DNA of 38,403 nucleotides from an uncultured Elusimicrobiaceae bacterium (GTDB taxonomy: Bacteria; Elusimicrobiota; Endomicrobiia; Endomicrobiales; Endomicrobiaceae). The notes beneath the pieces were generated by a model. The model had not been told where the DNA came from. It worked only from the letters and a program-made list of their open reading frames with translations, and searched no databases. Numbering within the stretch: the stretch's first letter is position 1; the number at the start of each line of letters is the position of its first letter. Location of the stretch: positions 33,751 through 72,153 of the forward strand of contig CAYTCB010000001.1 of assembly GCA_964436195.1 (NCBI GenBank), in the 5' to 3' direction. A program made the translations under genes and the position numbers. Below are positions 273-38,095 of this stretch, piece by piece.

Positions 273-974
273 ATGAAAAAGATAATAATTGGGCTTTTTT
301 TGTTTTTTGCCGCACAGACAGGTTACTGCGCTTATGCCCCGGTTGAACTTATAGATACCCCCACCCGTTCGATACTTGATTACGGCGGATATGAAATGCA
401 GTATAGAATGTTCTCGGGCGGCGGAGTTCTTACAAAATTGAATTTCGGTATATTTAAATCGCTCAACCTCGGAGTAGGCTGGGAAATAAGCAATATTATA
501 GGAACGGGAGACGTTGTTGTTGCTCCTCCGACTCTTCAGATTAAGTTCAGCGTATATGACGGAGACGTAAAATGGCCCGGTTTTGCTATAGGATATGACG
601 GGCAGGGTTATTTTTATGATGAATCTCAGGCTGAATTCCGCCAGAAAGGAAAAGGCGTTTACGTAGTAGTCGGCAAAGAATTGTTTCTGCCTACTTTAAA
701 TTTTAACGCAGGTCTTAACATAAATGACTTTAAAGAAGCAAGAGTAATAGGTTTTGCAAACTCTTCAATAGTAGTTATAGAAGACGCGCTGTTGTTTATG
801 CTTGAATGCGACAATATAGGAAAAGGCGATGATGTAAGGCTTAACAGCGGTTTGAAATTGTGGGTTACAAGATCGTTTACAATAGATTTTGCGGTCAGAA
901 ATCTTACAACTTCCGATGAAGCAAAATTCGGATGCGAAAGACTTTTCAGAATAAATTACCAGAGTAAATTTTAA
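273..974 (+). CDS. Hypothetical secreted / outer-membrane beta-barrel-like protein
   Basis: 233-aa ORF with an N-terminal signal peptide (MKKIIIGLFLFFAAQTGYCAYA). It has alternating beta-strand-like sequence and ends in an aromatic residue (..INYQSKF), as many OMPs do. A TTGATT-N17-TAATAT promoter-like site lies upstream. No family recognised. Confidence 0.6.
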   Translation: MKKIIIGLFLFFAAQTGYCAYAPVELIDTPTRSILDYGGYEMQYRMFSGGGVLTKLNFGIFKSLNLGVGWEISNIIGTGDVVVAPPTLQIKFSVYDGDVKWPGFAIGYDGQGYFYDESQAEFRQKGKGVYVVVGKELFLPTLNFNAGLNINDFKEARVIGFANSSIVVIEDALLFMLECDNIGKGDDVRLNSGLKLWVTRSFTIDFAVRNLTTSDEAKFGCERLFRINYQSKF

Positions 975-3087: not shown

Positions 3088-3375
3088 ATGGCAAAGTATG
3101 AAATAAAAGGCGTTCTCGTAGGTTCTTTGGTGAAAAATTTCCCGGTAGTATTTGCATTGTTGGGCGCGTTGATCGGTATTTTTACGTTCTTCATATTCCC
3201 CACGGAATTGGCAGCTAATCTTGGTTTCGGAGCAAAGTTGTTGTCATGGCTCATTTTCATTGTTTTGTATACATTGATAATGTCGGTAGGTATCATTGCA
3301 GTTGCTTGGATTTACAATATCATCGTCGGCAAGATTGGAAAAGGCGCAGTTTTGGAATTGGAACAGGCCGAATAA
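3088..3375 (+). CDS. Small hydrophobic membrane protein, function unknown (monocistronic)
   Basis: 95-aa ORF with two long hydrophobic segments (FPVVFALLGALIGIFTFFIF and LLSWLIFIVLYTLIMSVGIIAVAWIY). Strong RBS, own consensus promoter and own terminator. Confidence 0.7.
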   Translation: MAKYEIKGVLVGSLVKNFPVVFALLGALIGIFTFFIFPTELAANLGFGAKLLSWLIFIVLYTLIMSVGIIAVAWIYNIIVGKIGKGAVLELEQAE

Positions 3376-3390
3376 TTTATAAACAAAAAA

Positions 3391-3430
3391 CCGGTCTGCC
3401 GTTTATCGGCAGGCCGGCTTTACTTTTCTT
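3391..3430 (+). terminator. Rho-independent terminator (A-tract / hairpin / T-tract, potentially bidirectional)
   Basis: ccggtctgccg (3391-3401) pairs with cggcaggccgg (3407-3417): 11 bp including one G-U, loop tttat. A T-rich tail (ctttacttttcttt) follows and aaaaaa precedes. Confidence 0.8.
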
Positions 3431-3445
3431 TAAAGGGTATTTTTG

Positions 3446-4879
3446 ATGAGCCTTAGATTTAAGTTTACCCTGTACATATCTCTTCTTTTGCTGCTTGTTA
3501 TTTTAGGCGTATCATATAACATCTACGTAGCGCAAAAAAACTTTCTTACGCATCAGTTTTCTGAAACAAGACAAAAAACAATCACTACTTTTGTGGCAAT
3601 GTGCAATGAAGCCCTAAGGCTTCAGGATGAAGTGCAGATTCAGAATGCAATCGAACTTTTGATTAAAACTTATAATCCGTCGGTTGTTTACGCCGGTTAC
3701 GTAAATGCAAACGACGTTACGATTTATCTCTCCAGAGACAATGATAAAAATATCGACACCGAATTTAAACCAAGAATCAAAAAAACAGGAATACCGTATT
3801 CGGAGAATTATTATTCTCTGACGGGCCAGAAAATATTTGAATCCTGCGAGCCTTTAAGAAACAACGGGCAGTACGGCGGAACTTTTGTAATAGGTTTTTC
3901 GCAGGAATATTTCGAAAAACAAATAGCTCTAGGTATTTCCCAGATGACCACAAGAATAAAAATAGTTTCGGTTGTGGCTGTATTTGTCGGAATACTTCTG
4001 GCAAATTTTCTCGGTTACACTTTTGCAAAACCTTTAAAAATTCTTACGCATGCTTCCGAGGAAATAACAAAAGGAAATCTTGATGTTGAAATAAAACTTA
4101 AAAGAAACGACGAAATAGGGGTTTTATTCAATACTTTCAACAATATGGCAAAACAGGTAAAAGAACTTGATTCGATGAAAGACAGTTTCGTTTCAAGCGT
4201 TTCCCATGAATTAAGATCGCCGCTTGCCGCTATAGACGGATACTGCGATCTTCTTATAGACGGAATAGGGCAGGGTCATCCTAAAGAACAGCAGTTAAAA
4301 GGGCTTCATATAATAAAGCAGGCTGCGACAAGGCTCACAAATTTTATCAATAACATTTTGGATCTTGCAAAAATAAAAGCAAATAAACTTGAGCTTAAAA
4401 AAACAGAAACGGATATCGTCGCAGTTATTTCTGAAATAGCCGCTTTGTACCAGCCTTTGGCAGTTCAGCAGAAAAAAACAATAGGGCTTGATATAGTTTT
4501 CAGAAATCCGATAATCATATACGCCGATTCCGAAAAGATAAAACAGGTTATTACAAATCTCGTCAGCAATGCCATGAAATTTACGAAAGAAAACGGCAAT
4601 ATAGTTCTCAAAGTCCTTGAAAATTCCGCGGGATACGGCGATAATTATATAGAAGTCTGGATAAAAGATGACGGCATAGGTATTCCGAAGCATCAGGTTG
4701 ATCTTGTTTTTGAAAAATTTTTCCAGGTTCAGGACGGGCAGTTCAAAAGACCGAAAGGCACCGGGCTCGGACTTACGATAGTTGCGGAAATGATAAAATT
4801 ACACAAAGGATACGTATGGGCCGAAAGCGATTTGGGATGCGGAACTACTTTCAAATTTGTTTTGCCTAAAAACCTATGA
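3446..4879 (+). CDS. Membrane sensor histidine kinase with HAMP domain
   Basis: N-terminal TM, second TM plus a HAMP-like segment (KPLKILTHASEEITKGNLDVEI..DEIGVLFNTFNNMAKQV). H-box VSHELRSPLAAIDGY, N-box NLVSNAMKFT, G-boxes DDGIGIP and GTGLGLTIV. The ORF track starts at TTG 3443; ATG at 3446 is preferred. Confidence 0.9.
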   Translation: MSLRFKFTLYISLLLLLVILGVSYNIYVAQKNFLTHQFSETRQKTITTFVAMCNEALRLQDEVQIQNAIELLIKTYNPSVVYAGYVNANDVTIYLSRDNDKNIDTEFKPRIKKTGIPYSENYYSLTGQKIFESCEPLRNNGQYGGTFVIGFSQEYFEKQIALGISQMTTRIKIVSVVAVFVGILLANFLGYTFAKPLKILTHASEEITKGNLDVEIKLKRNDEIGVLFNTFNNMAKQVKELDSMKDSFVSSVSHELRSPLAAIDGYCDLLIDGIGQGHPKEQQLKGLHIIKQAATRLTNFINNILDLAKIKANKLELKKTETDIVAVISEIAALYQPLAVQQKKTIGLDIVFRNPIIIYADSEKIKQVITNLVSNAMKFTKENGNIVLKVLENSAGYGDNYIEVWIKDDGIGIPKHQVDLVFEKFFQVQDGQFKRPKGTGLGLTIVAEMIKLHKGYVWAESDLGCGTTFKFVLPKNL

Positions 4880-5805
4880 CAAAAGTTCTTGTAGTAGACG
4901 ATGAACCTTTTTTAAAGGAAATGCTGTACGATATATTTTCGATGGCCGGCTATGACGTCATTACGGCTGAAAACGGCAAGGAAGGCCTTGATAAAATATA
5001 CGGAGAGAATCCCGATTTTGTAATTTTGGACTGTTCTATGCCGGTAATGGACGGCTTTGAAGTTTTGTCGATTATAAGAAAAGAAGCGCGATTTGTTAAT
5101 TTGCCTGTCATAATGCTTACGGCTCTTGCAGGCGACGCGGAGCAGATAAAAGGATTAAGTCTCGGTGTTGACGACTACATAACGAAACCTTTTAAATCTT
5201 CCGTTCTTCTGACTAAGGTAAAAAATATTTTGGAAAGGAAAAAGCAGAGTCTCGACGTTAATCCGCTGACTTCTCTGCCGGGCAATATTTCGATACAAAA
5301 ATACGTCGAATCAAAAATTAAAGACAAGGCCGATTTTTCAATATTGTATTTTGATCTTTCGAATTTTAAAAGTTTTAACGATAAATACGGTTTTTTTGCG
5401 GGAGATCTCGTAATTAAATTTACGGCAGGAGTTCTTGATAAGGCCGTTAGAGAAGTTCCGGGCAATAAATTCGTCGGACATATAGGCGGCGATGATTTTG
5501 TGGTTATATCCGAAATAGAATACGGGATAAAAATAGCCGAGACGGTAATAAGTCTTTTTGATTCCGGAATAAAAGCTTTTTACAACAAAGAAGACATAGA
5601 AAAAGGATATATCGTATCGCTTGACAGAAACGATAATATACAGAAATTTCCCATAATGGGAATTTCGATAAGCATAATAGCTACAAATATTGCCGACATT
5701 GTTGATTTTGCCGATGTGGCGCAGAGAGCTTCCGAACTGAAAAAAATAGCCAAAAAAAATAGCAAAAGTTCGTATGTTTTTGAACGCAGGAAGTACGGCA
5801 GATAA
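4876..5805 (+). CDS. Response regulator: receiver domain fused to a GGDEF-family domain with a non-canonical GGDDF motif
   Basis: REC motifs VLVVDDEP, ILDCSMPVMDG and DDYITKPF. GGDEF-family motifs NPLTSLPGN, FDLSNFKSFNDKYGFFAGD and HIGGDDFVVI. Start overlaps the kinase stop (ATGA). Confidence 0.88.
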   Translation: MTKVLVVDDEPFLKEMLYDIFSMAGYDVITAENGKEGLDKIYGENPDFVILDCSMPVMDGFEVLSIIRKEARFVNLPVIMLTALAGDAEQIKGLSLGVDDYITKPFKSSVLLTKVKNILERKKQSLDVNPLTSLPGNISIQKYVESKIKDKADFSILYFDLSNFKSFNDKYGFFAGDLVIKFTAGVLDKAVREVPGNKFVGHIGGDDFVVISEIEYGIKIAETVISLFDSGIKAFYNKEDIEKGYIVSLDRNDNIQKFPIMGISISIIATNIADIVDFADVAQRASELKKIAKKNSKSSYVFERRKYGR

Positions 5806-5829
5806 ATTCTATTACCGCGGGGTTTTGAA

Positions 5830-6528
5830 ATGATAGAAAACAACAAAATAGTAATAGTTGACGATGAAGAGGAAATCAGAGAACTGGTCGCCGACGTTCT
5901 TGAGGCCGATAATTTTAAAGTCATAAAATGCGCCGATACGGATGAAGGCTACAAAAGAATTTTAAAATCTAAACCGGATCTCGCCATCCTTGACGTCAAA
6001 ATGCCGCAGATAGGCGGAATAGAACTGTGCAGACTTTTAAGATCCGACCCTGCAACAAAAAATATGCCGGTTATTATGCTTACGGTTGAATCTACAGAAA
6101 CTGACAAAGTGATAGGGCTCGGAGTTGGAGCCGACGATTACATAACAAAACCTTTCAGCAATAAAGAACTTATAGCAAGAATAAGGGCCCTTTTGAGGCG
6201 TGTTTCCAGAAAAGAAGAGTCAAGCGATATCAAAATAGACGGGCTTGTGATGAATCTTGACGCAAGAACGGTAATTCTTAATTCAAAAGAAATCAAATTA
6301 AGACCTAAGGAATTTGATCTTCTTCATATGTTTCTTATTAAGCAGAATATAGTTCTTTCAAGAGATTTTATTCTTGAAAATGTTTTTGAATATAACGTGG
6401 CGGTTACAACGAGAACTATCGATACCCATATAAAAAACTTAAGACAGGCTCTCGGAGAATGGGGCGATAAAATAGTTACCATTTTCGGGCGCGGTTTTAA
6501 ATTTGTGCCGGGTACGAGAAAAAAATAA
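5830..6528 (+). CDS. OmpR/PhoB-family DNA-binding response regulator
   Basis: REC (IVIVDDEEEIRELV, LDVKMPQIGG, ADDYITKPF) plus a winged-helix output domain (LRPKEFDLLHMFL, TRTIDTHIKNLRQAL, GRGFKF). Confidence 0.92.
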   Translation: MIENNKIVIVDDEEEIRELVADVLEADNFKVIKCADTDEGYKRILKSKPDLAILDVKMPQIGGIELCRLLRSDPATKNMPVIMLTVESTETDKVIGLGVGADDYITKPFSNKELIARIRALLRRVSRKEESSDIKIDGLVMNLDARTVILNSKEIKLRPKEFDLLHMFLIKQNIVLSRDFILENVFEYNVAVTTRTIDTHIKNLRQALGEWGDKIVTIFGRGFKFVPGTRKK

Positions 6529-6560
6529 AAAATTTGATATAATTTTTAAAAAGGGTACTT

Positions 6561-8696
6561 ATGAAAATAAAAAAAATAGCGGCAGCAGTCATTACGGCAA
6601 GCCTTGTTTTTGCCCATTCGGATCTTAAAGCAAGCGCTCTCATATACGCTCTAAATCCAGATCCTGTTTCTGCAGCGATGGCTGATGCCGGAGTAGCTCT
6701 TGTTTCAACTGTTATGCCTTCGGCTGTAATCAATCCTGCTTCCACTGTCGGTATTTACAGGACAGTCGCCTCCGTGGGCGGTTCAAACGTTACGGGCGAT
6801 ATACAGTATACGTTCGGTTCCGTAGGATTTGCAACAAATATAGGTATTTTCGGAGCATCTCTTATGTTTGTCGACTACAACACCGGTGAATATTATGATA
6901 ATGCCGGAAATACGATAGCTTTCGGCAAAACAACGGACATGGGCGCAGTTTTGACTTATGCTCTTCCGATAAAAGAATATCTGCCTGTTTTTATAGATTA
7001 CGGAGGAGTGGGTATCAATTTTAAACTTCTCAGAAGTTCGCTTGCAGATTATGTTTCGGAAACTTCGTCGGTTGATGTTGGTGCAGTTTTTGCCGTTCCG
7101 AAAATCAGAAATATGAGTCTCGGTTTTGCGTTTAAAAATTTAGGGACATCGGAAAAATTTGTAAAAACATCTTCAGAACTTCCGCAGATGATGACGGCCG
7201 GTCTCGGATATGCCAACAAAGATTTATACAACTTAAAACTTGCGGTTGATTTTACCGACCAAAAAAATTACCAAGATTTTACTTCGTTGGGTTTTTCAAT
7301 CAGCCCGGTTTATTTTATGACTTTAAGAGCCGGCGTAAAGTTGGGCGGCGAATCCATTTTGAATAATACGAGAATGGGCGTCGGACTCCAGTTTGAAACG
7401 GTAAGCATTGACTATGCTTTTATCCCGTCTCAGGATTTGAATGCCACCCACAGTTTTAATTTGAGTTTTGCTTTCGGTTCTTTTGCAAACCAGAGAGCGG
7501 CCTATGAATATTATCTGGAAGATAATTTCAGAAAGGCGCGCGCCAGTTTTTATGCCAAGGATTTTGTAAAATCAAGACAGCAGTTTGACGATATCCTTTC
7601 CGTTTATCCCGATCACAGGCCGTCGCAGGAATATTTGAAAAAGACAATTGAAGAACTTGAAAAAATAGATGATTACAATTTTGCAAAAATCAGCAAATAT
7701 ATGAAAAAAGCCGATAAGGCCAGAGCAAAAAACAATGTCGTAAAAGCGGACAGATATTACAGAAAAGTTTTGGATTTGGATCCTGAAAACAAAGTCGCAA
7801 AATCGGCTATAGAAGATATAGCTTCTGCGACTTCCGACGTGAAAGCGCTTCAGGAAAGAGACACAAACAGCGACAGAATAACTTATTTGTGGGAAAGATA
7901 CGAAAAATTTTATAAGAAGGGAGATCTTGTAAGGGCAAAAGATTCTCTGAAATATCTTTTGGATATAGATCCTTCAAACGATCTTGCAAAAGAAAAAATG
8001 GTTGATGTTGACAACCAGCTTTCAAAAATCGCATCCGACAAAGCTAACGAAATTTACGAACAGGCGATGAAATATTACAATAAAGGCGAATATGAAGAAG
8101 CGATAAAATATTTTGAAGCCGTCGTAGTTGCCGCTCCGCACAGGCTTGACGTAAGAACTTTAATAGAAAAATCGGAAAAAAATATTCAGGATATAGCCGA
8201 ATACAAAAGGCTGACGGCCCTTGAAAAAGAACAAAATAAAGTAAGATCTCAGCTTGTCGGTTACTTTGAAAGCGGCCTTAAGAATTACGAAAAGGGGAAA
8301 TATGAATCCGCCGTTGAATATTTCAAAAAAGCCAGAGATATAGCCGAAAAATACGAATTCAGCGAATATTATAAAAATGCAAACAATTACATATCGAAGA
8401 TGAGTTACAGTTTGTCGGAGCAGTACTATAAGAAAGGGTTTAACGCTTTCAGAGAAAACGATTTTGAGCTGGCAGCCCAGTCATATAAGAAATCTTTGGA
8501 ATATAATCCGGGCAACACTTCGGCTTCGTTTGAACTTGACAGAGTCGCAGACAGCGTAGCGCAGAAATATTATGAAGAAGGAATGAACGCGTACAGCAGC
8601 AACGAAATGGATAAAGCAAGAGAATATTTAAGAAAAGCTTTATATTATAAACCGGACAAATCCGAAGCAAAAAGAGCTTTGGACAGAATCAGATAA
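6561..8696 (+). CDS. Fusion protein: N-terminal PorV/FadL-like outer-membrane beta-barrel (about aa 1-305) plus C-terminal TPR-repeat domain (about aa 310-711)
   Basis: Signal peptide MKIKKIAAAVITASLVFAHSDLKA. The N-terminal part is paralogous to the stand-alone barrel at 34281-35231: AAMADAGVAL..INPAS versus AAMGNASVS..WNPANLA, with barrel ends THSFNLSFAFG versus THRFSFSVKF. The C-terminal half has repeated TPR-like units (YNKGEYEEAIKYFEAVV, YEKGKYESAVEYFKKAR, YKKSLEYNPGN, LRKALYYKPDKSEA). A possible extended -10 site (TGATATAAT, 6535-6543) lies upstream. Confidence 0.75.
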   Translation: MKIKKIAAAVITASLVFAHSDLKASALIYALNPDPVSAAMADAGVALVSTVMPSAVINPASTVGIYRTVASVGGSNVTGDIQYTFGSVGFATNIGIFGASLMFVDYNTGEYYDNAGNTIAFGKTTDMGAVLTYALPIKEYLPVFIDYGGVGINFKLLRSSLADYVSETSSVDVGAVFAVPKIRNMSLGFAFKNLGTSEKFVKTSSELPQMMTAGLGYANKDLYNLKLAVDFTDQKNYQDFTSLGFSISPVYFMTLRAGVKLGGESILNNTRMGVGLQFETVSIDYAFIPSQDLNATHSFNLSFAFGSFANQRAAYEYYLEDNFRKARASFYAKDFVKSRQQFDDILSVYPDHRPSQEYLKKTIEELEKIDDYNFAKISKYMKKADKARAKNNVVKADRYYRKVLDLDPENKVAKSAIEDIASATSDVKALQERDTNSDRITYLWERYEKFYKKGDLVRAKDSLKYLLDIDPSNDLAKEKMVDVDNQLSKIASDKANEIYEQAMKYYNKGEYEEAIKYFEAVVVAAPHRLDVRTLIEKSEKNIQDIAEYKRLTALEKEQNKVRSQLVGYFESGLKNYEKGKYESAVEYFKKARDIAEKYEFSEYYKNANNYISKMSYSLSEQYYKKGFNAFRENDFELAAQSYKKSLEYNPGNTSASFELDRVADSVAQKYYEEGMNAYSSNEMDKAREYLRKALYYKPDKSEAKRALDRIR

Positions 8697-8701
8697 AATA
8701 T

Positions 8702-9139
8702 ATGAAAAAAATAATTGCTGCTTCAATTTTATTGTTTGCCGTTGTTTCAATATCTCATGCCGGCGTAAAAGTATTTCCTAATCCGTGGATACCGGAATCG
8801 GGGCAGTCTTTGTCGTCAAGCGGCGGAGACACGATAAAGCACGGCAGCCTTAATGCGGACGGATGGATAAAGTTTGAATTTAACGATGCGGCGGAAATCG
8901 TTTCATCGGGCGAGCTTGTCATATATGACGTTATGGGAAATCTTGTAAAAAGAAAAAAATGGATTCTTCCGGAATATGTTCCCCTGCCAAATACAAATAC
9001 AACCGAAAATGAGAACCGCACAATCCACTGGGACGGCAAAGATGAAAGATACAGTTATGTGCCCAGCGGCGTTTACATCTGGATTATATATATAGACGGC
9101 GGCAAGAAATATACAGGCAAAGTGGTTATTGTCCGTTAA
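8702..9139 (+). CDS. Small secreted protein consisting essentially of a T9SS-type C-terminal sorting / FlgD-Ig-like domain
   Basis: Signal peptide MKKIIAASILLFAVVSISHA, then VFPNPW. Later motifs LVIYDVMGNLV, IHWDGKDE, SGVYIWIIY and GKVVIVR follow the Por_Secre_tail / FlgD_ig pattern (yPNPF ... vyD..G..V ... W.G.d..G..v.sGvY ... K.v..k). Starts 5 nt after the upstream stop. Confidence 0.65.
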   Translation: MKKIIAASILLFAVVSISHAGVKVFPNPWIPESGQSLSSSGGDTIKHGSLNADGWIKFEFNDAAEIVSSGELVIYDVMGNLVKRKKWILPEYVPLPNTNTTENENRTIHWDGKDERYSYVPSGVYIWIIYIDGGKKYTGKVVIVR

Positions 9140-13277: not shown

Positions 13278-14447
13278 TTATATTTCCTGCGCCGATACGG
13301 TTTTAAGGAAGGCATCCACGACTATCGGGCTGAACTGTTTGTTTTTATTGGAAATGATTTCTTTTATAATTTCATTTTTTCTCATCGTTTTTCTGTACGG
13401 TCTGTCGCTTGACATTGCGTCAAAAGCGTCGGCTACCGAGATTATAGACGCTATCAGCGGTATTTCATCGCCGAGAAGATTGTAAGGATAGCCTCTTCCG
13501 TCATATCTTTCGTGATGGTATTTGACGCCGAGCGAAATGATCTTAAACTCGTTTATAGGTTCGAGAATTTCAGCTCCCATAGCCGGATGTTTTTTAACAA
13601 GATCCATTTCCTGTTTAGTAAGAAAAGAAGGTTTATTTAATATATCTTCGGGGATTCCTATTTTACCTATATCGTGAAGAAGAGCAGCTATCTTAAGAGA
13701 ATCTTCAAAAGACTGATAGGCTACTTTAAGATGGTTCGGAATATATTTTGCAATGCTCATCGAATATTTTGTAACGCGTTCGGCATGTCCGTGAGTATAT
13801 TCGTTCTTTACGTCTATGGCGTTTGCAAGAGCCTCGACTGTATTTAAAAGAAGTCTTTTGTTTTCTTCAAGCTGCTGTTTTGTGTCTTCAAAAAGTTTGG
13901 CATTTTGTATTGCCATAACAACGTCGGAAGACAATACCGTCAAAAAGTTAATTTCGCCTTTTGTAAATCTTTTTCCATCTTCTTTTTTGCCTATAAAAAA
14001 TACGACAAGCAGATTGTTTCTGAAAAAACCCGGCACTATAAGTTTTGCGCGGTAAAGCGAGATATCATTTTCCAGATTATAAAGAAAATCAAGCGTTTTA
14101 GGGTCATTTTTATATTTTCTTTTTAAGGCTGGAAGCTGTGTTACAAGAAAAAAATCTTTGTTTACTTCGGGAAGAAGATTTTTGTCGCTGAAAAATTTTA
14201 TGATAGGACGCGTGCTTTTTATTTTTGCAAAGCCTACCGGTATTTTTAAGCCTTTTTGGCCGCTTGAAACGTTTATTATGTATTCCTGGAAATTCTTGTC
14301 GTAGAGAAAAAGTCCGGAATATTTTACGCCGAGAGTTCTGGTAACCGTCCTTATGACCATTTTTGAAAGCAGATCGGCGTCATGTATTAAAATCATCTGC
14401 TTTGCAACGTGTGATAAGTATTCCTTAAAATCTTTTCTTCTTTTCAT
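13278..14447 (-). CDS. HD-GYP domain protein (predicted c-di-GMP phosphodiesterase) with an N-terminal GAF-like sensor region
   Basis: Motifs HGHAERVTKYS, AALLHDIGKIGIPEDILNK, HPAMGAEIL and HHERYDGRGYP. About 190 aa of N-terminal non-catalytic domain. Start overlaps the upstream stop. Confidence 0.9.
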   Translation of the reverse strand: MKRRKDFKEYLSHVAKQMILIHDADLLSKMVIRTVTRTLGVKYSGLFLYDKNFQEYIINVSSGQKGLKIPVGFAKIKSTRPIIKFFSDKNLLPEVNKDFFLVTQLPALKRKYKNDPKTLDFLYNLENDISLYRAKLIVPGFFRNNLLVVFFIGKKEDGKRFTKGEINFLTVLSSDVVMAIQNAKLFEDTKQQLEENKRLLLNTVEALANAIDVKNEYTHGHAERVTKYSMSIAKYIPNHLKVAYQSFEDSLKIAALLHDIGKIGIPEDILNKPSFLTKQEMDLVKKHPAMGAEILEPINEFKIISLGVKYHHERYDGRGYPYNLLGDEIPLIASIISVADAFDAMSSDRPYRKTMRKNEIIKEIISNKNKQFSPIVVDAFLKTVSAQEI

Positions 14448-14806
14448 TGTTTGATGTAATTTAAGATTTTTTCTTTGAAATCCGATAAATCTATAGGTTT
14501 TTGTATATAATCTACTACGCCCAGAGAGTGGACGTCTGTTTTTAAATCAGAAGAAATATTGCCGGTTATTATCATTGCTCTTACTTTAGGATCCAGTTTT
14601 TTCAGAATTTTAAGAACGTCAACGCCGTTCATTCCGCCAAGATGTATATCAAGAAGCACGAAGTCAAAAGAATTTTTTTTATAAATTTCTATCGCATCTT
14701 CGCCTGAAATTGCCGTTGCCGTATCAATTTCAAGCCTTTTGAGAAATCTTGCCATAAAGGCGAGTATTTCTTCTTCGTCGTCTACGATAAGGACTTTTTT
14801 TCTCAC
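14444..14806 (-). CDS. Single-domain CheY-like response regulator
   Basis: 120 aa with VLIVDDEEEIL, LLDIHLGGMNG and VVDYIQKPI. GTG start preceded by GGAG. Confidence 0.9.
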   Translation of the reverse strand: MRKKVLIVDDEEEILAFMARFLKRLEIDTATAISGEDAIEIYKKNSFDFVLLDIHLGGMNGVDVLKILKKLDPKVRAMIITGNISSDLKTDVHSLGVVDYIQKPIDLSDFKEKILNYIKQ

Positions 14807-14860
14807 CTGTAAACTCCAGTAAAAAGCAATTTAAAATCTTAAAATAGTATAACAAAAGTT

Positions 14861-17011
14861 TTATATATTTGGCAACTCAATGAATATGTCTGTTCCGTGC
14901 ATGTATGTGGACTCAATCCAGATCCTTCCCTTAAGGTTTTCGGTTACGATTCTTTTTACGATATACATGCCTATGCCGGTGCCCGATTTAGTAGATGATT
15001 TTGTCGTAAAAAACGGAACGAATATTTTTGATATGTTTTCTTCTTTTATTCCTATTCCGTTATCCGATATATGCAGTGTCGTAATCTTGTCTTTTTTTGA
15101 AAGGGATATTCCTATCTGCGGCGCATAAGCTTTTAAGCTGTCGCCAGTCAGAATATTATATTTTTCGCATATAGCTTCATAAGCGTTATCTATCAGATTG
15201 TAAACTATTTCCATCATATGTGCCTGTATAGCAAAAATTGTGACGTCATCTTTAAAATTGTTTATTATTTTTAAACTGCCCATGTCGGTTATTTTATGTT
15301 TTGCGCTTAAAAGTTCAAAAGACAAATCCGTTATATCTTTAAATTTAAAATGCTCAAACATAAGCTGTTTTGATTCTATTTTTGCATAATTTAAAATGCT
15401 GCTGACTACTTCGTTTGTTTTTTTGACGTTTGTCTCAAGAGATTCCGCTATTTTTGTAATGTAGGCGAATGTTTCCGATAAATTTTTATTTTCGGAAATT
15501 GTTTTATCCTGCTGTTTTGCGCAGTCCAGGATTTCATATTTCAGGTCTCCGGCAAGAACCGAAAACTGGTGCAGTCTGTTTCTTATCTGGTGAGCGACGC
15601 CTTCGGCAAGTCCTCCGATAGAGGCAAGTTTTTCGGCGGTAAATATTTTTTCCTGAGCCTGTTTGTATTCGTCGAAAAATAAACAGTTTCCCATTGCAAG
15701 AGATGTTTGTCTGGCAAGCATTTTAAATATATTTATATCGTCTCTGGTAAAGATGTCCTTATTGTTTTTTTCGCCTATTACCATAAAACCTCTTACTCCC
15801 TCGTAAAACGAAGGGATGACAAGCGCAACTTTAAAAGGCAGCACTACGGAATTGGCTATATACTGCGGAATTTCGTCAAATAAAAAAGGATTTTCTTTAT
15901 GCTGTATGAAATTTATGAAAGGATGTTCATAGTCATATGAGAAAAGCAGCTCGTTTGCCGAATTGGAGAATGATCTTAAAATTTTAATTTCGAAATTTTT
16001 CTGTTCTTTATTTTCAAGAAAAATGGCCACAAAATTAACTTTTATTGTTTTAAGGACTATAATTGCTATAAGCTTGAGCAGTCTTTCAAGATTATGCTCC
16101 TGAGCCATCCCGCTTGCCGCATGAAGAAGCAGGTTCTGGTAATGTTTGTTTTTTGCAAGAAGAAGATCTTCGGCTTTAAGTATTACCCTTTTATATAGCA
16201 GAAAACAGCCGATAGTCAAAAGAAATGTAAAAAGGTTTGACAGAAAAATATTGTCTGAAAATTTTGCGACATGGCTTGTTATGAAAAGGACAAGAAGCAG
16301 CATGAAAGAAAATATCACAAGTTTTATCGACAAAACCTTCAGATTGGCGATATTGTAATTTGATATTATAAGCGCCGATGTCGAAAGGCAGAACAATATT
16401 ATAAGATGCGTTATAGGTTCAAAATTAAAAAAATCATAGAAGAAAAGATTGTCAAAAACAAAAAGTACCAGAAACAGCATATAAGTCAGCATCAGATAAA
16501 TGGCTTTATGTTTTTTTATTGAAGATATGTCGTCGGTTTTAATATATCCGAGGATTCTTTTTAATCCGAATAAGATGACGGCGGCGCTGTATATTATGAA
16601 AAAAACATGAAGACGCCCGTTTTGCGGATAGATGCCCCATTCGGCTGTTTTTATTCCGCTTACAAAAAAACCTGAAAGTATAAGAGACAGCGCAAAAAAA
16701 GCGCCGGGCGCAAAAATAAGCCAGTAAGTTGTTTTCTTTATCGTATCTTTTATAAAAGACAATATAAAAAAAACTGAAAAAGCCGGCACAAAAATCATTC
16801 CGACGGTTCCCGCCGTAAGCCAGAAAGAAGCGTTTTCCGGTCTTGCCGTAATCATCTGGGCATAACAAAACAGCCAGATAAAAGAAGCCGCGCACAACGC
16901 GGAGAAAGAAAGGCTTATCGGATTTTTTTTGTTTTTTACGAATATAAAAACCGCAAGAGCTACGGCAGCAATCGAGGATGTATATAATAGAATTTGCTGT
17001 AGATTATACAT
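14861..17011 (-). CDS. Polytopic membrane sensor histidine kinase (multi-TM N-terminus, GAF-like middle, HisKA/HATPase C-terminus)
   Basis: About 8-9 N-terminal hydrophobic segments. H-box-like GLAEGVAHQIRNRL, N-box NLIDNAYEA, G-boxes SDNGIGI and GTGIGMYIV. Confidence 0.88.
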   Translation of the reverse strand: MYNLQQILLYTSSIAAVALAVFIFVKNKKNPISLSFSALCAASFIWLFCYAQMITARPENASFWLTAGTVGMIFVPAFSVFFILSFIKDTIKKTTYWLIFAPGAFFALSLILSGFFVSGIKTAEWGIYPQNGRLHVFFIIYSAAVILFGLKRILGYIKTDDISSIKKHKAIYLMLTYMLFLVLFVFDNLFFYDFFNFEPITHLIILFCLSTSALIISNYNIANLKVLSIKLVIFSFMLLLVLFITSHVAKFSDNIFLSNLFTFLLTIGCFLLYKRVILKAEDLLLAKNKHYQNLLLHAASGMAQEHNLERLLKLIAIIVLKTIKVNFVAIFLENKEQKNFEIKILRSFSNSANELLFSYDYEHPFINFIQHKENPFLFDEIPQYIANSVVLPFKVALVIPSFYEGVRGFMVIGEKNNKDIFTRDDINIFKMLARQTSLAMGNCLFFDEYKQAQEKIFTAEKLASIGGLAEGVAHQIRNRLHQFSVLAGDLKYEILDCAKQQDKTISENKNLSETFAYITKIAESLETNVKKTNEVVSSILNYAKIESKQLMFEHFKFKDITDLSFELLSAKHKITDMGSLKIINNFKDDVTIFAIQAHMMEIVYNLIDNAYEAICEKYNILTGDSLKAYAPQIGISLSKKDKITTLHISDNGIGIKEENISKIFVPFFTTKSSTKSGTGIGMYIVKRIVTENLKGRIWIESTYMHGTDIFIELPNI

Positions 17012-23195: not shown

Positions 23196-24449
23196 TCAAA
23201 AACAAAAAGTCAGTTCCGTTTTGAAAAAAGATCCGCTTTTTAATTTTTCGTTATTATAGAAATCTCCGGCAGTAAAATATTCCCCGTACAACAGAAATTT
23301 TACATTTTTATTAAACTGATGGCAAAATTCGGCCAAAGCGAGGCTTCCTCTGTTGTTGCCGTTTCCGAATATACTTCCGGTTACGGTCTGGTTTGCGTAA
23401 AGCAAAGCATAAGTACCCGCAACGTATGTTTTTTTTGAAATGTTAAGTTTGTACTGCGCCTGATACATTTTTAAATTAGACCAGTATCCGACGTCTCCTG
23501 TTTCAGGCAGATATATAAAACACATCAGATCGGACCATATAAACATTCCTCTTCCGTAGAGATTATTCCATCCTTCGTCGGCGCTTGTCTTTTCGTCGTC
23601 TCCGGATAAATAATATCCGCCGATGCTTACGATATCGTTGAAAAATACTTTTTCACGCTCGATAAATCCGTATCCGCCGTAAGCTGTTCCGGTTTCATGC
23701 AGATTGTCTCTAAGCTGTCCGGCAAATTGTCCTTTGAAGGTCCACGGCCCGTTTTTATATCTGACATAACTGCCCAGAGTATGTATATTTTCATAATAAG
23801 CTATGTTTTCATTCTTATATATATAAAACGGTTCTATGTAAAGTTTATTTGAAAGATTGCTTTTTACAAAAATCATCGCCGAACTTTCATTGCTGTTGTT
23901 AAGTTTTGAAGGGGGATTGTTTTGATTTAGAACCGGCAGATATTGTTCGTATTTTGTTCCGCAGTGCCCGACGATTTCTATAGTCGCAGGTTTGGTTTTT
24001 ACCGTAAATTTTGCGGCATTAAAATATATTGATCTTGATCCGTCGCCGGGTGTTCCTTCCCATACCAAAAATCCGTCTCCGTAATAAAGATTCTGTCTTC
24101 CTATACGGATATCAAGAATATTTCCGAAAAGATTTTTGGCGTCAAAATATAAATTTTCAAAAATAAATTCGTTTATGCTGTAATCAGATGATTTGCCCGG
24201 CATATTGTATATGTAAGGCCTGTTTTCATTCATAAGTTTTACATAAGCGGAATAATTCGGGCTGAAATCGGTTTTTAATCCGACAGCTGTTTTTATTCTG
24301 AAAGTATTATAATTGAGATCTTTGTAATTGTTTTCAAAATCCTGAACCACATAACGAAGTCTCATGTAAAAATCGGGAGTTATTTCAACGGCTTTAACGG
24401 AAGCCGCATACGACAAAATACAAACCAAAGCCAATATAAAACGTTTCAT
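23196..24449 (-). CDS. Outer-membrane beta-barrel porin, alginate-export (AlgE-like) family
   Basis: Signal peptide MKRFILALVCILSYAASVKA. Motif LDIRIGRQNLYYGDGFLVWEG...SIYFNAAKF matches the Alginate_exp signature (GRQ.l.yG.g.l). C-terminal ..ELTFCF. RBS GGAGGA. Confidence 0.7.
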   Translation of the reverse strand: MKRFILALVCILSYAASVKAVEITPDFYMRLRYVVQDFENNYKDLNYNTFRIKTAVGLKTDFSPNYSAYVKLMNENRPYIYNMPGKSSDYSINEFIFENLYFDAKNLFGNILDIRIGRQNLYYGDGFLVWEGTPGDGSRSIYFNAAKFTVKTKPATIEIVGHCGTKYEQYLPVLNQNNPPSKLNNSNESSAMIFVKSNLSNKLYIEPFYIYKNENIAYYENIHTLGSYVRYKNGPWTFKGQFAGQLRDNLHETGTAYGGYGFIEREKVFFNDIVSIGGYYLSGDDEKTSADEGWNNLYGRGMFIWSDLMCFIYLPETGDVGYWSNLKMYQAQYKLNISKKTYVAGTYALLYANQTVTGSIFGNGNNRGSLALAEFCHQFNKNVKFLLYGEYFTAGDFYNNEKLKSGSFFKTELTFCF

Positions 24450-34280: not shown

Positions 34281-35231
34281 TTATTTTTTTACAACCTCCC
34301 CGAATTTCACGGAAAAAGAAAATCTGTGAGTCATTCCCAGATCTCCGTAAGGGACAAAAGCATAATCAAATGAAAAATCCATATAATTGATTCCGAACCC
34401 CGTATTGAGCCAGTTTAAACCGGGAATATCTTTATTTCTGCCGTCATAGCCTGCTCTGAGAAAAAAATCGGTTTGTGATGACAAAGAAAACAGGTATTCT
34501 CCTCCGGCATTAAAATACAAATTATTGTCATTCGGAAAGTTTAAATCAAGCGCCAAAAGAAGATTATCGGTCACATAGCTTGATATTCCGGTTTTTAACA
34601 ATACAGGCAGTTTCTCGGATTCATTATTGAATTTGATGTTTGTTCCTATATTGGACACGGCTGCCGCCACGGATGTTTTTCCGTCCGATAAATCGAAATT
34701 TGTCCCGAAATCAACTGCAAAAGCGCTTGCCGAATTGTCTATTTTACAGTTAATGTACTTCAAATTTGCTCCGAACTGCAGACTTCCGTAAGATCTGGCA
34801 TAAGAAAGATATAAAGCCGTATCGGCCGGCGAGAAAGAACCTTCCGTAACGGCATAAGAATTTATTTTGGCCATGGTCCCGTAAGAAACATACTGCAGCG
34901 CTACGGCAAGAGTGCCGTTTTTCTCAAAAGGCACGGCAAAAGATACCCATTCATAATTGATGTTTTCAAACCATGCCGTGTGTGAAAAGGAGACTGTTTT
35001 TTGTTCGATAGGCGCGAGATTTGCGGGATTCCAGTAAACGGCATCGCTTCCGCACAAATTGCTTACGGATGCATTTCCCATTGCCGCGTTCTTTGCCCCT
35101 ATTCCAAGCTTTAAAAACTGCGCCGCAGCGGTGCCAGTATCCTGTGATGATAAAAAAGCGTGCGCATTGCAGACAGCCGATAAAAACAAAATAACAACGG
35201 ACGCCCATTTAATAAGTTTTTCCATTGGCAT
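34281..35231 (-). CDS. PorV/FadL-like outer-membrane beta-barrel protein (stand-alone)
   Basis: Signal peptide ..VVILFLSAVCNAHA. Motifs GTAAAQFLKLGIGAKNAAMGNASVS and DAVYWNPANLA. C-terminal beta-signal GMTHRFSFSVKFG. Paralogous to the N-terminal domain of 6561-8696. Confidence 0.7.
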   Translation of the reverse strand: MPMEKLIKWASVVILFLSAVCNAHAFLSSQDTGTAAAQFLKLGIGAKNAAMGNASVSNLCGSDAVYWNPANLAPIEQKTVSFSHTAWFENINYEWVSFAVPFEKNGTLAVALQYVSYGTMAKINSYAVTEGSFSPADTALYLSYARSYGSLQFGANLKYINCKIDNSASAFAVDFGTNFDLSDGKTSVAAAVSNIGTNIKFNNESEKLPVLLKTGISSYVTDNLLLALDLNFPNDNNLYFNAGGEYLFSLSSQTDFFLRAGYDGRNKDIPGLNWLNTGFGINYMDFSFDYAFVPYGDLGMTHRFSFSVKFGEVVKK

Positions 35232-37717: not shown

Positions 37718-38095
37718 ATGAAATTCAAAGGTTTTACTCTTGTAGAACTTGTTATCGTGATTGTGATTGTCGGCATTTTGTCAGTAGTTGCAGTTCCTGT
37801 TTACAAAGGATATACAAAGAAAGCGATGGCAACGGAAGGAAAAGCATTGCTCGGAGCCATTCACACGGCCCAGAAGGTTTATTTTGCGGAATTCAGCAGG
37901 TTTGTTACCGGCGCACAGTCGACTTTGCTTGATGTCAGAGCAAATACAAATAAATATTTTACGACTTTCTCTGTTACCGGCTCGGCAACAGGTTTTACGG
38001 CAGTAACTAACGGGTCAGGCTCAGCTAACGGAATCAGGCTTACATTGAGAGCAAGTTCAACTGCAGGCCCTTTCCTCACGGAATCAGGTTTGTAA
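37718..38095 (+). CDS. Type IV pilin-like protein (prepilin-type N-terminal cleavage / methylation domain)
   Basis: MKFKG|FTLVELVIVIVIVGILSVVAVPVY: class III signal peptide with Gly-1, Phe+1 and Glu+5. 125 aa, no cysteines. Confidence 0.88.
   Translation: MKFKGFTLVELVIVIVIVGILSVVAVPVYKGYTKKAMATEGKALLGAIHTAQKVYFAEFSRFVTGAQSTLLDVRANTNKYFTTFSVTGSATGFTAVTNGSGSANGIRLTLRASSTAGPFLTESGL

What the first reader, a model, noticed from the sequence alone, without database searches (positions are those of the whole stretch)
3443..9139. Five-gene operon linking a two-component system and a GGDEF-type regulator to a PorV-like barrel::TPR fusion and a cargo-less CTD protein
Seen directly:
- Five same-strand genes are packed tightly (a 4-nt overlap, then 24-, 32- and 5-nt gaps).
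- The order is HAMP histidine kinase, REC-GGDDF, OmpR-type regulator, a 711-aa outer-membrane barrel fused to TPR repeats, and a 145-aa secreted protein that is little more than a T9SS-type C-terminal sorting / FlgD-Ig domain.

Established knowledge:
- In Bacteroidota, PorV is the outer-membrane shuttle that binds such CTDs.
- c-di-GMP regulators commonly control TPR-plus-barrel polysaccharide exporters (PgaA, BcsC, PelB, AlgK/AlgE).

Inference: this is a signal-controlled envelope module pairing a PorV-like barrel with its own minimal CTD ligand, in an organism showing no other T9SS genes in this window. I do not know of a described system with this composition.
Basis: partly seen in the sequence, partly recalled or inferred. 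Interest (0 to 1): 0.7.

Follow-up and report, generated by a model that had tools for sequence, protein, structure and literature searches.

The report
PorV-like barrel–TPR fusion with minimal partner
A gut/rumen Endomicrobia bacterium carries a conserved operon in which a two-component sensor system sits with an outer-membrane barrel related to PorV (the type IX secretion carrier), fused to a long periplasmic arm, and with a tiny protein that is only a secretion-tag-like domain; this suggests barrel–tag pairing exists in a phylum with no described type IX secretion.

Summary
Five same-strand genes lie at the stated coordinates and spacings: a HAMP histidine kinase, a REC-GGDDF protein, an OmpR-type regulator, a 711-aa barrel::TPR protein and a 145-aa secreted protein.

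- **Barrel:** it is a real PorV homologue. A barrel-domain profile hits Flavobacterium johnsoniae PorV at E 2.6e-15, PorV is the top Foldseek match, and orthologues pass NCBIfam's PorV/PorQ cut-off.
- **Small protein:** it is a signal peptide plus one domain of the T9SS-CTD / FlgD-Ig group. The window copy scores just below the curated cut-offs; some orthologues reach about that level.
- **Conservation:** the barrel::TPR–CTD pair is adjacent in 37 of 42 Elusimicrobiota species genomes, often with overlapping stop and start codons. The kinase and OmpR regulator usually accompany it. A sigma-70 factor or the REC-GGDDF gene comes and goes.

The polysaccharide-exporter analogy fails. The window also holds a second, stand-alone PorV/PorQ-family barrel, so "no other T9SS genes" is not quite right.

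Physical binding, topology and function are inferred, not shown. The closest precedents are PorQ–PorZ / PorV–PorU anchoring and PorA–PorY–PorX–SigP signalling. I rate it a new variant of a known kind, of moderate to good interest.

The parts
3391..3417 (+). Terminator-like hairpin that closes the upstream unit (the 95-aa membrane protein gene) and marks the 5' boundary of the operon
   Evidence: 11-pair stem with 9 G-C pairs, followed by a T-rich tail. Sequence shown.
3443..4879 (+). Sensor histidine kinase. It has two transmembrane segments (about aa 8-32 and 168-196) around a periplasmic loop of about 135 aa, then HAMP, HisKA (H-box SHELRSPL) and HATPase_c. The likely true start is the ATG at 3446.
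   Evidence: HAMP 8e-12, HisKA 6e-16, HATPase_c 4e-26, dCache_1 1e-4 (below cut-off); hydropathy; start codon.
4876..5805 (+). Response regulator made of REC plus a GGDEF-family domain. Its signature reads GGDDF, and there is no RxxD inhibitory site.
   Evidence: REC 1.8e-27; GGDEF 51.4 bits against a cut-off of 23.8, with only profile positions 5-90 aligned; alignment to PleD. GGDDF in 30 of 30 orthologues, none with RxxD.
5830..6528 (+). OmpR/PhoB-type DNA-binding response regulator (REC plus winged helix)
   Evidence: REC 4e-29, Trans_reg_C 4e-19. PhoB 226 bits, below the equivalog cut-off.
6561..6632 (+). Signal peptide of the barrel::TPR protein (aa 1-24)
   Evidence: Sequence. The AF2 model has low pLDDT here.
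6633..7472 (+). PorV/FadL-type outer-membrane domain. It comprises an N-terminal hatch segment (aa 25-68, with invariant N58-P59-A60) and a 14-stranded beta-barrel (aa 69-304).
   Evidence: AF2 pLDDT about 85-93, 14 strands; top Foldseek hits 8gl6_F and 6h3i_F (PorV), E 8e-10, target TM-score 0.63; barrel profile against PDB gives PorV at E 2.6e-15. NCBIfam scores.
7485..8693 (+). All-helical TPR arm of about 400 aa, C-terminal to the barrel and therefore inferred to be periplasmic. It is as conserved as the barrel.
   Evidence: TPR_2 1e-21 and other TPR families; helices 309-710, pLDDT 80-94; conservation 0.72 for the TPR arm against 0.70 for the barrel strands.
8702..9139 (+). A 145-aa secreted protein made of a signal peptide (aa 1-20) and one CTD / FlgD-Ig-like domain that begins right after the cleavage site (VKVFPNPWIPE...) and ends at the C-terminus (...GKVVIVR). 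There is no cargo domain.
   Evidence: TIGR04183 21.5 bits (cut-off 23), PorZ C-terminus 1.3e-4, PorU C-terminus 3.5e-4. CHU_C 22.3 bits, FlgD_ig 18.8 bits (cut-offs 27); hits among orthologues; alignments.
34281..35231 (-). Stand-alone paralogue of the barrel: a 316-aa PorV/PorQ-family protein without TPR. It is not part of the operon but shows that this genome carries several PorV-type barrels.
   Evidence: barrel HMM E 6.5e-50. NF033709 176.7 bits (cut-off 90), PorQ 143 bits; 29% identity to the operon's barrel.

Best explanation
This is a lineage-wide envelope module of Endomicrobia (phylum Elusimicrobiota). Its core is an outer-membrane 14-stranded barrel homologous to PorV, the T9SS carrier that binds C-terminal sorting domains (CTDs). 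The barrel is fused to a TPR arm of about 400 aa that I infer to be periplasmic. It is co-expressed, often translationally coupled, with a dedicated small exported protein that is only a CTD-like Ig domain.

Most likely the barrel::TPR protein binds this domain as a permanent partner. This would resemble the way PorQ holds PorZ and PorV holds PorU, both surface proteins carrying CTDs; PorZ's CTD is documented as not cleaved. The result would be a barrel-plus-Ig-domain complex in the outer membrane, with the TPR arm as a periplasmic docking platform.

The module carries its own control. A periplasm-sensing histidine kinase would phosphorylate an OmpR-type transcription factor. In some lineages a sigma-70-family factor is inserted directly before the barrel gene. 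A second REC-GGDDF regulator may add a nucleotide second-messenger output.

Shown: gene content and order, homology, fold of the barrel, and conservation of the pair.

Inferred: physical binding, topology of the small protein, which genes the regulators control, and cyclase activity.
For: Barrel homology to PorV:
- Barrel profile against PDB sequences hits only PorV (E 2.6e-15), then a FadL homologue (E 0.015).
- PorV is the top Foldseek match for a confident AF2 model.
- NF033709 passes its cut-off in full-length orthologues: 95.3, 106.7, 137.3 and 145.5 bits against 90.

Small protein is CTD-like:
- 9 of 11 orthologues hit TIGR04183, 8 hit the PorU C-terminus and 6 hit the PorZ C-terminus.
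- At E<=6e-5, 16 of 33 hit the PorZ C-terminus (best 3.3e-10) and 10 of 33 hit TIGR04183.
- NCBI names two orthologues 'T9SS type A sorting domain-containing protein'.
- All listed orthologues are small, mostly 113-204 aa, with none carrying a cargo domain.

Pairing:
- The CTD gene follows the barrel::TPR gene in 37 of 42 species genomes. In most, the spacing runs from a 4-nt overlap to about 30 nt.
- The pair survives where the kinase and REC-GGDDF genes are lost, as in L045.
- A 23%-identical barrel::TPR relative sits next to a larger protein that ends in a CTD-like domain (L005).

Regulators:
- The kinase and OmpR regulator are visible in 32 loci, and a sigma factor is inserted in 15.

Precedents:
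- PorZ and PorU are anchored on PorQ and PorV, and PorZ's CTD is not cleaved (PMC8545088).
- CTDs bind PorV's extracellular loops (PMC10994853).
Against: - No interaction test was possible. The structure tool returns no interface data, and the AF2 model of the small protein is poor (pLDDT 51). Its fold search gave only generic Ig/FN3 matches.
- The window's own proteins score below the curated cut-offs: TIGR04183 21.5 against 23, and no NF033709 hit for the 711-aa protein.
- The small domain matches FlgD_ig as often as the T9SS tail models, so 'CTD' is a superfamily-level call.
- The predicted extracellular loops of the barrel are short (3-18 aa), unlike the long CTD-gripping loops described for PorV.
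- No SprA-type translocon is known here, so how or whether the small protein reaches the cell surface is open.
- Gene order upstream (OMP-like gene, accA, fba, 95-aa membrane protein) is conserved too, so part of the conservation could be plain synteny.
- L039 lacks the CTD gene. The deep-branching relatives L044 and L046 have other neighbours.
Confidence: 0.5

Rival explanations
1. Signalling loop of the PorA-PorY type. The small CTD protein is mainly a periplasmic protein ligand of the adjacent histidine kinase. The barrel::TPR protein captures, exports or sequesters it, so that free CTD protein reports the state of the outer membrane to the kinase, the OmpR regulator (with or without the sigma factor) and the REC-GGDDF protein.
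For: - In P. gingivalis the CTD of PorA, the smallest type A cargo, binds the periplasmic side of PorY. It activates PorX and the sigma factor SigP, and PorA also exists in a PorV-bound form (PMC12152298).
- Here the same kinds of parts are encoded in one operon: a kinase with a periplasmic loop of about 135 aa, response regulators, a sigma factor in 15 loci, a PorV homologue and a minimal CTD.
Against: - The barrel::TPR-CTD pair is kept in L045, where the kinase is gone, so the pair has a role beyond feeding this kinase.
- The regulators differ from the Por ones. The response regulator is OmpR-type rather than a PorX-type (my own knowledge). The sigma factor is FliA/RpoS-like rather than ECF.
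- There is no evidence of kinase-CTD contact.
Confidence: 0.2
2. Self-contained export device, working like Slam / type XI secretion. The TPR arm receives the Sec-exported small protein in the periplasm, and the 14-stranded barrel moves it to the cell surface without any SprA-type translocon.
For: - Architecture parallel: DUF560 (type XI secretion) proteins are 14-stranded barrels with a periplasmic TPR domain. Their cargo genes co-occur with them, and the cargo is targeted by its C-terminal domain (PMC8406197).
- Weak TPR_Slam hits (25.3 bits against a cut-off of 35.2).
- The cargo-like gene is adjacent.
Against: - No DUF560 (PF04575) hit.
- The domain order is reversed.
- The barrel is homologous to PorV/FadL, which are carriers or diffusion channels rather than proven protein translocons.
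- A FadL-type lumen with a hatch is narrow for a folded Ig domain (my own knowledge).
Confidence: 0.12
3. FadL-like uptake channel for hydrophobic compounds. The TPR arm and the small Ig-like protein are accessories, and the resemblance to T9SS parts reflects only shared ancestry.
For: - FadL structures are the next-best fold matches (target TM-score 0.52-0.54).
- The invariant NPA hatch motif aligns with a FadL homologue.
- PorV-family barrels are a large family (2542 representative clusters at E<=1e-3). A stand-alone paralogue sits among housekeeping genes in this window.
Against: - Sequence and fold are clearly closer to PorV than to FadL (E 2.6e-15 against 0.015; target TM-score 0.63 against 0.54).
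- There is no Pfam Toluene_X/FadL hit.
- This reading does not explain a dedicated CTD-like partner or a 400-aa conserved TPR arm.
Confidence: 0.1
4. c-di-GMP-controlled exopolysaccharide exporter of the PgaA / BcsC / AlgK-AlgE / PelB kind (part of the first reader's framing).
For: - A GGDEF-family regulator lies in the operon.
- TPR and barrel are in one protein.
- Glycosyltransferase genes lie just downstream on the opposite strand.
Against: - The barrel is N-terminal, has 14 strands and is homologous to PorV.
- No synthase or PilZ-type receptor lies in the operon.
- The downstream glycosyltransferases are convergent and are replaced by rpmH-rnpA-yidC in relatives.
- The REC-GGDDF gene is absent in 7 lineages that keep the pair.
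Confidence: 0.04

Closest known systems
PorV (LptO), the type A substrate carrier of the Bacteroidota T9SS
   Same: Homologous N-terminal hatch (NPA motif) and 14-stranded barrel. The barrel profile hits F. johnsoniae PorV at E 2.6e-15, and PorV is the best fold match. The gene lies next to a gene for a CTD-like domain.
   Different: Here the barrel is fused to a TPR arm of about 400 aa and is more compact, with short predicted outer loops. It is found in Elusimicrobiota. No SprA/Sov or PorK/L/M/N genes are seen in the window, and the rest of the genome could not be searched. It sits below the PorV equivalog cut-offs.
PorQ-PorZ and PorV-PorU pairs of the T9SS attachment complex
   Same: A PorV/PorQ-family barrel holding a surface protein that carries a CTD; PorZ's CTD is not cleaved (PMC8545088). 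The barrel's best specific NCBIfam model is PorQ. The small protein's best matches are the C-termini of PorZ and PorU.
   Different: PorZ and PorU carry large functional domains, whereas this partner is the tag alone. In P. gingivalis these pairs serve cargo attachment to A-LPS. No sortase or cargo set is evident here.
PorA-PorY-PorX-SigP regulatory cascade of P. gingivalis
   Same: A small CTD protein, a PorV-bound form of it, a histidine kinase, a response regulator and a sigma factor acting together. The CTD itself is the active part (PMC12152298).
   Different: PorA has an N-terminal 10-strand domain. The Por genes are scattered rather than in one operon (my own knowledge). The regulators here are OmpR-type and REC-GGDDF, and the sigma factor, where present, is FliA/RpoS-like rather than ECF.
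PorP/SprF-like barrels paired with type B CTD proteins
   Same: The logic of a dedicated outer-membrane barrel that anchors one CTD protein (PMC9143113). That the genes are typically neighbours is my own knowledge. CHU_C (type B) hits occur in 20 of 33 orthologues.
   Different: The barrel here belongs to the PorV/PorQ family rather than the PorP/SprF family; no PorP model hit appeared. There is no large adhesin cargo.
Slam / DUF560 type XI secretion proteins
   Same: A 14-stranded barrel plus a periplasmic TPR domain, with the cargo gene alongside (PMC8406197).
   Different: No DUF560 homology. The TPR is C-terminal and much longer. The cargo domain is of a different type.
PgaA / BcsC / AlgK-AlgE / PelB exopolysaccharide exporters
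   Same: TPR plus outer-membrane barrel, with a GGDEF-family regulator nearby.
   Different: Domain order, strand number, barrel family and operon content all differ.

Membership tests
PorV/PorQ family (NCBIfam NF033709) | Score above the curated cut-off (90 bits) | tested here: inconclusive
   The window's 711-aa protein gave no NF033709 hit, only PorQ at 42.2 bits. Full-length orthologues pass: P0060 95.3, P0074 106.7, P0077 137.3 and P0076 145.5 bits. NCBI names several orthologues 'PorV/PorQ family protein'.
PorV/PorQ family | Sequence homology to an experimentally characterised PorV | tested here: met
   The barrel-domain profile (A5) against all PDB sequences gives PorV 6h3i_F at E 2.6e-15 (59.4 bits). 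The only other hit is a FadL homologue at E 0.015.
PorV/PorQ family | 14-stranded FadL-type barrel with an N-terminal hatch | tested here: met
   The AF2 model shows 14 strands over aa 69-304 and a hatch at aa 25-68, with pLDDT about 85-93. Foldseek's top hits are PorV chains 8gl6_F and 6h3i_F. N58-P59-A60 are invariant.
PorV/PorQ family | Works with a T9SS translocon (SprA/Sov) and the PorK/L/M/N core | not testable with these tools
   None of these genes is in the 38-kb window. The rest of the genome could not be read. No paper reports a T9SS in Elusimicrobia.
T9SS type A CTD (TIGR04183 / PF18962) | Score above the curated cut-off (23 bits) | tested here: inconclusive
   The window protein scores 21.5 bits. 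10 of 33 orthologues match at E<=6e-5, roughly the cut-off level. Pfam Por_Secre_tail matches only 4 of 33, against FlgD_ig 22 of 33 and CHU_C 20 of 33. NCBI names P0360 and P0381 as type A sorting domain proteins.
T9SS type A CTD | Domain at the extreme C-terminus of a Sec-exported protein, about 70-100 aa | tested here: met
   A signal peptide is followed at once by the domain, which runs to the last residue. The shortest orthologues are about 92 aa when mature.
T9SS type A CTD | Seven-stranded Ig-like beta-sandwich resembling solved CTDs | tested here: inconclusive
   AF2 gave pLDDT 51 and six strands. Foldseek returned only generic Ig/FN3 folds at E>=3e-3. The profile against PDB found only the PorZ CTD, at E 0.76.
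T9SS type A CTD | Removed by the PorU sortase, or bound by PorV | not testable with these tools
   This needs biochemistry. A near-invariant Lys (K140) in the last strand is consistent with the conserved CTD lysine that contacts PorV (PMC10994853), but the equivalence is my inference.
Diguanylate cyclase (GGDEF, PF00990) | Pfam score above the cut-off and an intact GG[DE]EF active site | tested here: inconclusive
   The Pfam score is 51.4 bits against a cut-off of 23.8, but only profile positions 5-90 align. The motif is GGDDF in 30 of 30 orthologues and the RxxD site is absent. Activity and product are unknown.
Synthase-dependent exopolysaccharide exporters (PgaA/BcsC/AlgE-AlgK/PelB) | N-terminal TPR, a C-terminal 16-18-stranded barrel, and a synthase in the operon | tested here: not met
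   The barrel is N-terminal, has 14 strands and is homologous to PorV. No synthase lies in the operon. The strand numbers quoted for the exporters are from my own knowledge.
Type XI secretion / Slam (DUF560, PF04575) | DUF560 barrel homology | tested here: not met
   There is no PF04575 hit. TPR_Slam scores 25.3 bits against a cut-off of 35.2.

The most novel reading that the evidence does not exclude
PorV-type recognition of a CTD-like domain exists as a free-standing, self-regulated outer-membrane device in Elusimicrobiota, a phylum without a type IX secretion machine. The barrel::TPR protein alone would capture and display, or sense, its minimal CTD partner. That would make it a simpler relative, possibly resembling an ancestor, of the T9SS carrier and attachment modules and of the PorA-PorXY-SigP feedback loop.
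Probability: 0.3. Interest if true: 0.75.

Novelty: new variant of a known kind. Interest (0 to 1): 0.55.

Why it matters
PorV and CTDs are studied almost only as parts of the Bacteroidota T9SS. This finding has three possible uses.

- **A minimal test system.** A conserved pair of a PorV homologue and a bare CTD-like domain, in a phylum with no described T9SS, would be a two-protein system for asking how PorV-type barrels recognise CTDs. It would also show whether that recognition predates or is independent of the SprA translocon.
- **A test of PorA-style signalling.** The built-in two-component system, with or without the sigma factor, makes it a natural test of the recent idea that a CTD can be a signalling ligand.
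- **A first handle on a conserved envelope component.** The module is retained even in reduced endosymbiont genomes of rumen, gut and termite Endomicrobia, and nothing is known about its function.

Tried and rejected
- **Structure of the 145-aa protein.** The AF2 model, built on 14 close orthologues, was poor (pLDDT 51). Its fold search gave only generic Ig/FN3 hits, so there is no structural proof of a CTD fold.
- **Co-folding of barrel and small protein.** Not attempted. The tool returns no interface or PAE data and accepts only unmodified sequences.
- **Genome-wide search for a T9SS core.** Not possible.
- **Literature.** Searches for T9SS in Elusimicrobia or Elusimicrobiota found nothing relevant.
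- **Other CTD-bearing proteins.** A local HMM of the small protein found no other CTD-bearing ORF in the window or in about 0.65 Mb of related loci. Those loci are all the same region, so this is weak evidence.
- **Conservation mapping.** Barrel loops scored 0.61, strands 0.70 and the TPR arm 0.72. This did not single out a binding face.
- **Deep-branching loci L044 and L046.** A Pfam scan of their neighbours showed only a giant protein containing a C39 peptidase domain.
- **Rejected readings.** The polysaccharide exporter, a DUF560/Slam member and a flagellar FlgD. FlgD was rejected because the hits are only to the shared Ig-like domain.

Full report
**Observation**

The ORF list reproduces the finding exactly. 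The genes are a kinase (3443-4879), a REC-GGDDF regulator (4876-5805), an OmpR-type regulator (5830-6528), a 711-aa protein (6561-8696) and a 145-aa protein (8702-9139). All are on the + strand, with a 4-nt overlap followed by gaps of 24, 32 and 5 nt.

A strong terminator-like hairpin at 3391-3417 closes the upstream gene. The internal gaps hold no room for separate control signals. The last gene overlaps the stop of a convergent glycosyltransferase gene. The kinase more likely starts at the ATG at 3446.

The window is 93.5% identical in DNA over 16.7 kb to a complete Endomicrobiaceae MAG chromosome, OY762939.1. The organism therefore belongs to Endomicrobia, phylum Elusimicrobiota.

**The regulators**

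- **Kinase.** It has two membrane segments around a periplasmic loop of about 135 aa, which gives a weak dCache match. HAMP, HisKA and HATPase_c follow.
- **OmpR/PhoB-type regulator.** It is complete.
- **REC-GGDDF regulator.** It passes the Pfam GGDEF cut-off, but only the first half of the profile aligns. The metal- and guanine-binding positions align with those of PleD. The signature is GGDDF, and there is no RxxD inhibitory site. GGDDF is invariant in 30 of 30 orthologues, so it is a conserved variant rather than decay. Its product is unknown.

**The 711-aa protein**

AlphaFold2 on a 23-sequence alignment gave a confident model with mean pLDDT 83. The model has three parts:
- a signal peptide;
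- a hatch segment (aa 25-68) and a 14-stranded barrel (aa 69-304);
- an all-helical TPR arm (aa 309-710).

Foldseek against the PDB ranks PorV from the Flavobacterium johnsoniae T9SS translocon first (8gl6_F and 6h3i_F; E 8e-10; target TM-score 0.63). FadL follows at 0.52-0.54.

A profile of the barrel domain alone, searched against all PDB sequences, hits PorV at E 2.6e-15. The only other hit is a FadL homologue at E 0.015. The alignment includes the invariant N58-P59-A60 hatch motif.

The window protein itself reaches only 42 bits on the PorQ model. Its full-length orthologues pass the curated PorV/PorQ-family cut-off, scoring 95-145 bits against 90, and NCBI names several of them accordingly.

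The barrel has an even number of strands, so the C-terminal TPR arm should be periplasmic; this is an inference. The arm is as conserved as the barrel.

**The 145-aa protein**

After a signal peptide, the mature chain begins at once with VKVFPNPWIPE and ends with GKVVIVR. The shortest orthologues are about 92 aa when mature, which is the size of a T9SS CTD.

The window copy scores just under the curated thresholds:
- TIGR04183: 21.5 bits against 23;
- CHU_C: 22.3 bits against 27;
- FlgD_ig: 18.8 bits against 27.

Among 33 orthologues at E<=6e-5, 16 match the C-terminus of PorZ (best 3.3e-10) and 10 match TIGR04183. In Pfam, FlgD_ig matches 22, CHU_C 20 and Por_Secre_tail 4. NCBI calls two orthologues type A sorting domain proteins.

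The structure prediction was poor (pLDDT 51) and the fold search was uninformative.

The safe statement is this: the protein is a cargo-less, exported, single Ig-like domain of the T9SS-CTD / FlgD-Ig superfamily, and its closest sequence matches are the C-termini of PorZ and PorU.

**Conservation**

The fusion protein has 77 relatives in the protein database, and every named one is from Endomicrobia or Elusimicrobia. The barrel domain belongs to a large family, with 2542 representative clusters at E<=1e-3. About 30 of the listed representatives are fusions of 700-745 aa, and all the named ones I looked up are from Elusimicrobia. Stand-alone relatives occur elsewhere, for example in Hydrogenedentota.

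A scan of one genome per species returned 42 loci, all from Elusimicrobiota. My local annotation of these loci shows the following:
- The CTD gene directly follows the barrel::TPR gene in 37 of 42 loci. In most, the spacing runs from a 4-nt overlap to about 30 nt.
- The five exceptions are one true loss (L039), one contig end (L040), one pseudogenised operon (L047) and two deep-branching groundwater genomes with other neighbours (L044, L046).
- The kinase and the OmpR regulator precede the pair wherever the contig allows, in 32 loci.
- A FliA/RpoS-like sigma-70-family gene is inserted between the OmpR regulator and the barrel gene in 15 loci.
- The REC-GGDDF gene is missing in 7 loci.
- In L045 (Endomicrobiellum), only the OmpR regulator, the barrel::TPR gene and the CTD gene remain.

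A distant barrel::TPR relative (23% identity, L005) lies next to a larger protein that ends in a CTD-like domain.

The core is therefore the barrel::TPR-CTD pair. The two-component system is its usual regulator, and the GGDDF branch and the sigma factor are optional.

One caution applies. Four upstream genes (an OMP-like 233-aa protein, accA, fba and a 95-aa membrane protein) are conserved in order too. Part of the signal may therefore be plain synteny.

**Mechanism**

The best-supported reading is a dedicated barrel-CTD pair. PorV binds CTDs through its outer loops (PMC10994853). PorQ and PorV anchor the surface proteins PorZ and PorU, and PorZ's CTD is not cleaved (PMC8545088). By homology and tight gene coupling, I infer that the Endomicrobia barrel::TPR protein holds its minimal partner in the same way. 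The TPR arm would serve as a periplasmic platform, and expression would be set by the adjacent kinase, the OmpR regulator and, where present, the sigma factor.

A closely related alternative comes from P. gingivalis. There, the CTD of the small cargo PorA binds the kinase PorY and drives PorX and SigP (PMC12152298). The same kinds of parts are encoded together here, so the small protein could be a ligand of the kinase. Retention of the pair without the kinase in L045 argues that signalling is not its only role.

A Slam-like self-export model (PMC8406197) and a FadL-like uptake model remain possible.

The exopolysaccharide-exporter idea is not supported, for four reasons:
- the domain order is reversed;
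- the barrel has 14 strands and is homologous to PorV;
- no synthase lies in the operon;
- the downstream glycosyltransferases are not conserved in relatives.

**Context and novelty**

The window has no T9SS core genes. It does contain a second, stand-alone PorV/PorQ-family barrel at 34281-35231 (-). This scores 176.7 bits against a cut-off of 90 and is 29% identical to the operon's barrel. PorV-type barrels are thus a small family in this genome.

I could not search the rest of the genome for a T9SS, and I found no paper on T9SS in Elusimicrobia.

Public annotation already labels individual orthologues as 'PorV/PorQ family' or 'T9SS type A sorting domain'. I found no description of the fusion, the pairing or the operon. 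I rate it a new variant of a known kind. The parts are recognisable; what is new is their combination, their setting in Elusimicrobiota and the bare CTD.

Noticed in passing
window 34281-35231 (-): A stand-alone 316-aa PorV/PorQ-family outer-membrane barrel (NF033709 176.7 bits, cut-off 90; 29% identical to the operon's barrel). It lies among housekeeping genes, including thioredoxin, a ResA-like protein and TrxB, with no CTD gene beside it.
   Followed up: partly
window 13278-17011 (-): A second signalling cluster: a 7TM histidine kinase (14861-17011), a stand-alone REC (14444-14806) and an HD_5 / HD-GYP-type protein (13278-14447). The HD-GYP-type protein is a possible c-di-GMP phosphodiesterase that could counter the REC-GGDDF protein. 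The cluster is syntenic in the closest relatives (L006-L008, L023).
   Followed up: no
window 273-974 (+) and 3088-3375 (+): A 233-aa OMP-like protein (signal peptide, ends ...YQSKF, no Pfam hit) and a 95-aa multi-pass membrane protein. Together with accA and fba they are conserved in the same order upstream of the operon in most of the related loci where that region is present. It is unclear whether this is plain synteny or a functional link.
   Followed up: partly
L001 7229-8008, L004 3-689 and 13 other loci: A FliA/RpoS-like sigma-70-family gene is inserted between the OmpR-type regulator and the barrel::TPR gene in termite-gut Endomicrobium lineages and in L041. It overlaps both neighbours in L001 and is absent from the window's clade.
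   Followed up: partly
L047 7252-9534: In Endomicrobium sp. Po218_bin4 the kinase and the barrel::TPR genes are broken into short fragments, so the operon appears pseudogenised. In L045 the kinase and REC-GGDDF genes are gone but the OmpR regulator, barrel::TPR and CTD genes are kept.
   Followed up: partly
L044 10189-18097 and L046 10236-18059: In two groundwater Elusimicrobia the barrel::TPR gene is followed by a stand-alone REC, a 186-aa protein and a giant protein of more than 2100 aa. In L044 the giant protein has a C39 peptidase domain. There is no CTD gene.
   Followed up: partly
window 23196-24449 (-): A 417-aa protein with a signal peptide and a C-terminal ...TFCF, with no Pfam or NCBIfam hit. 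It looks like an uncharacterised outer-membrane barrel and lies about 0.8 kb beyond the TetR-OEP-AcrB efflux cluster, after an intervening 242-aa gene.
   Followed up: no
window 37718-38095 (+): A type IV pilin / pseudopilin-like gene with a prepilin N-terminal methylation motif.
   Followed up: no
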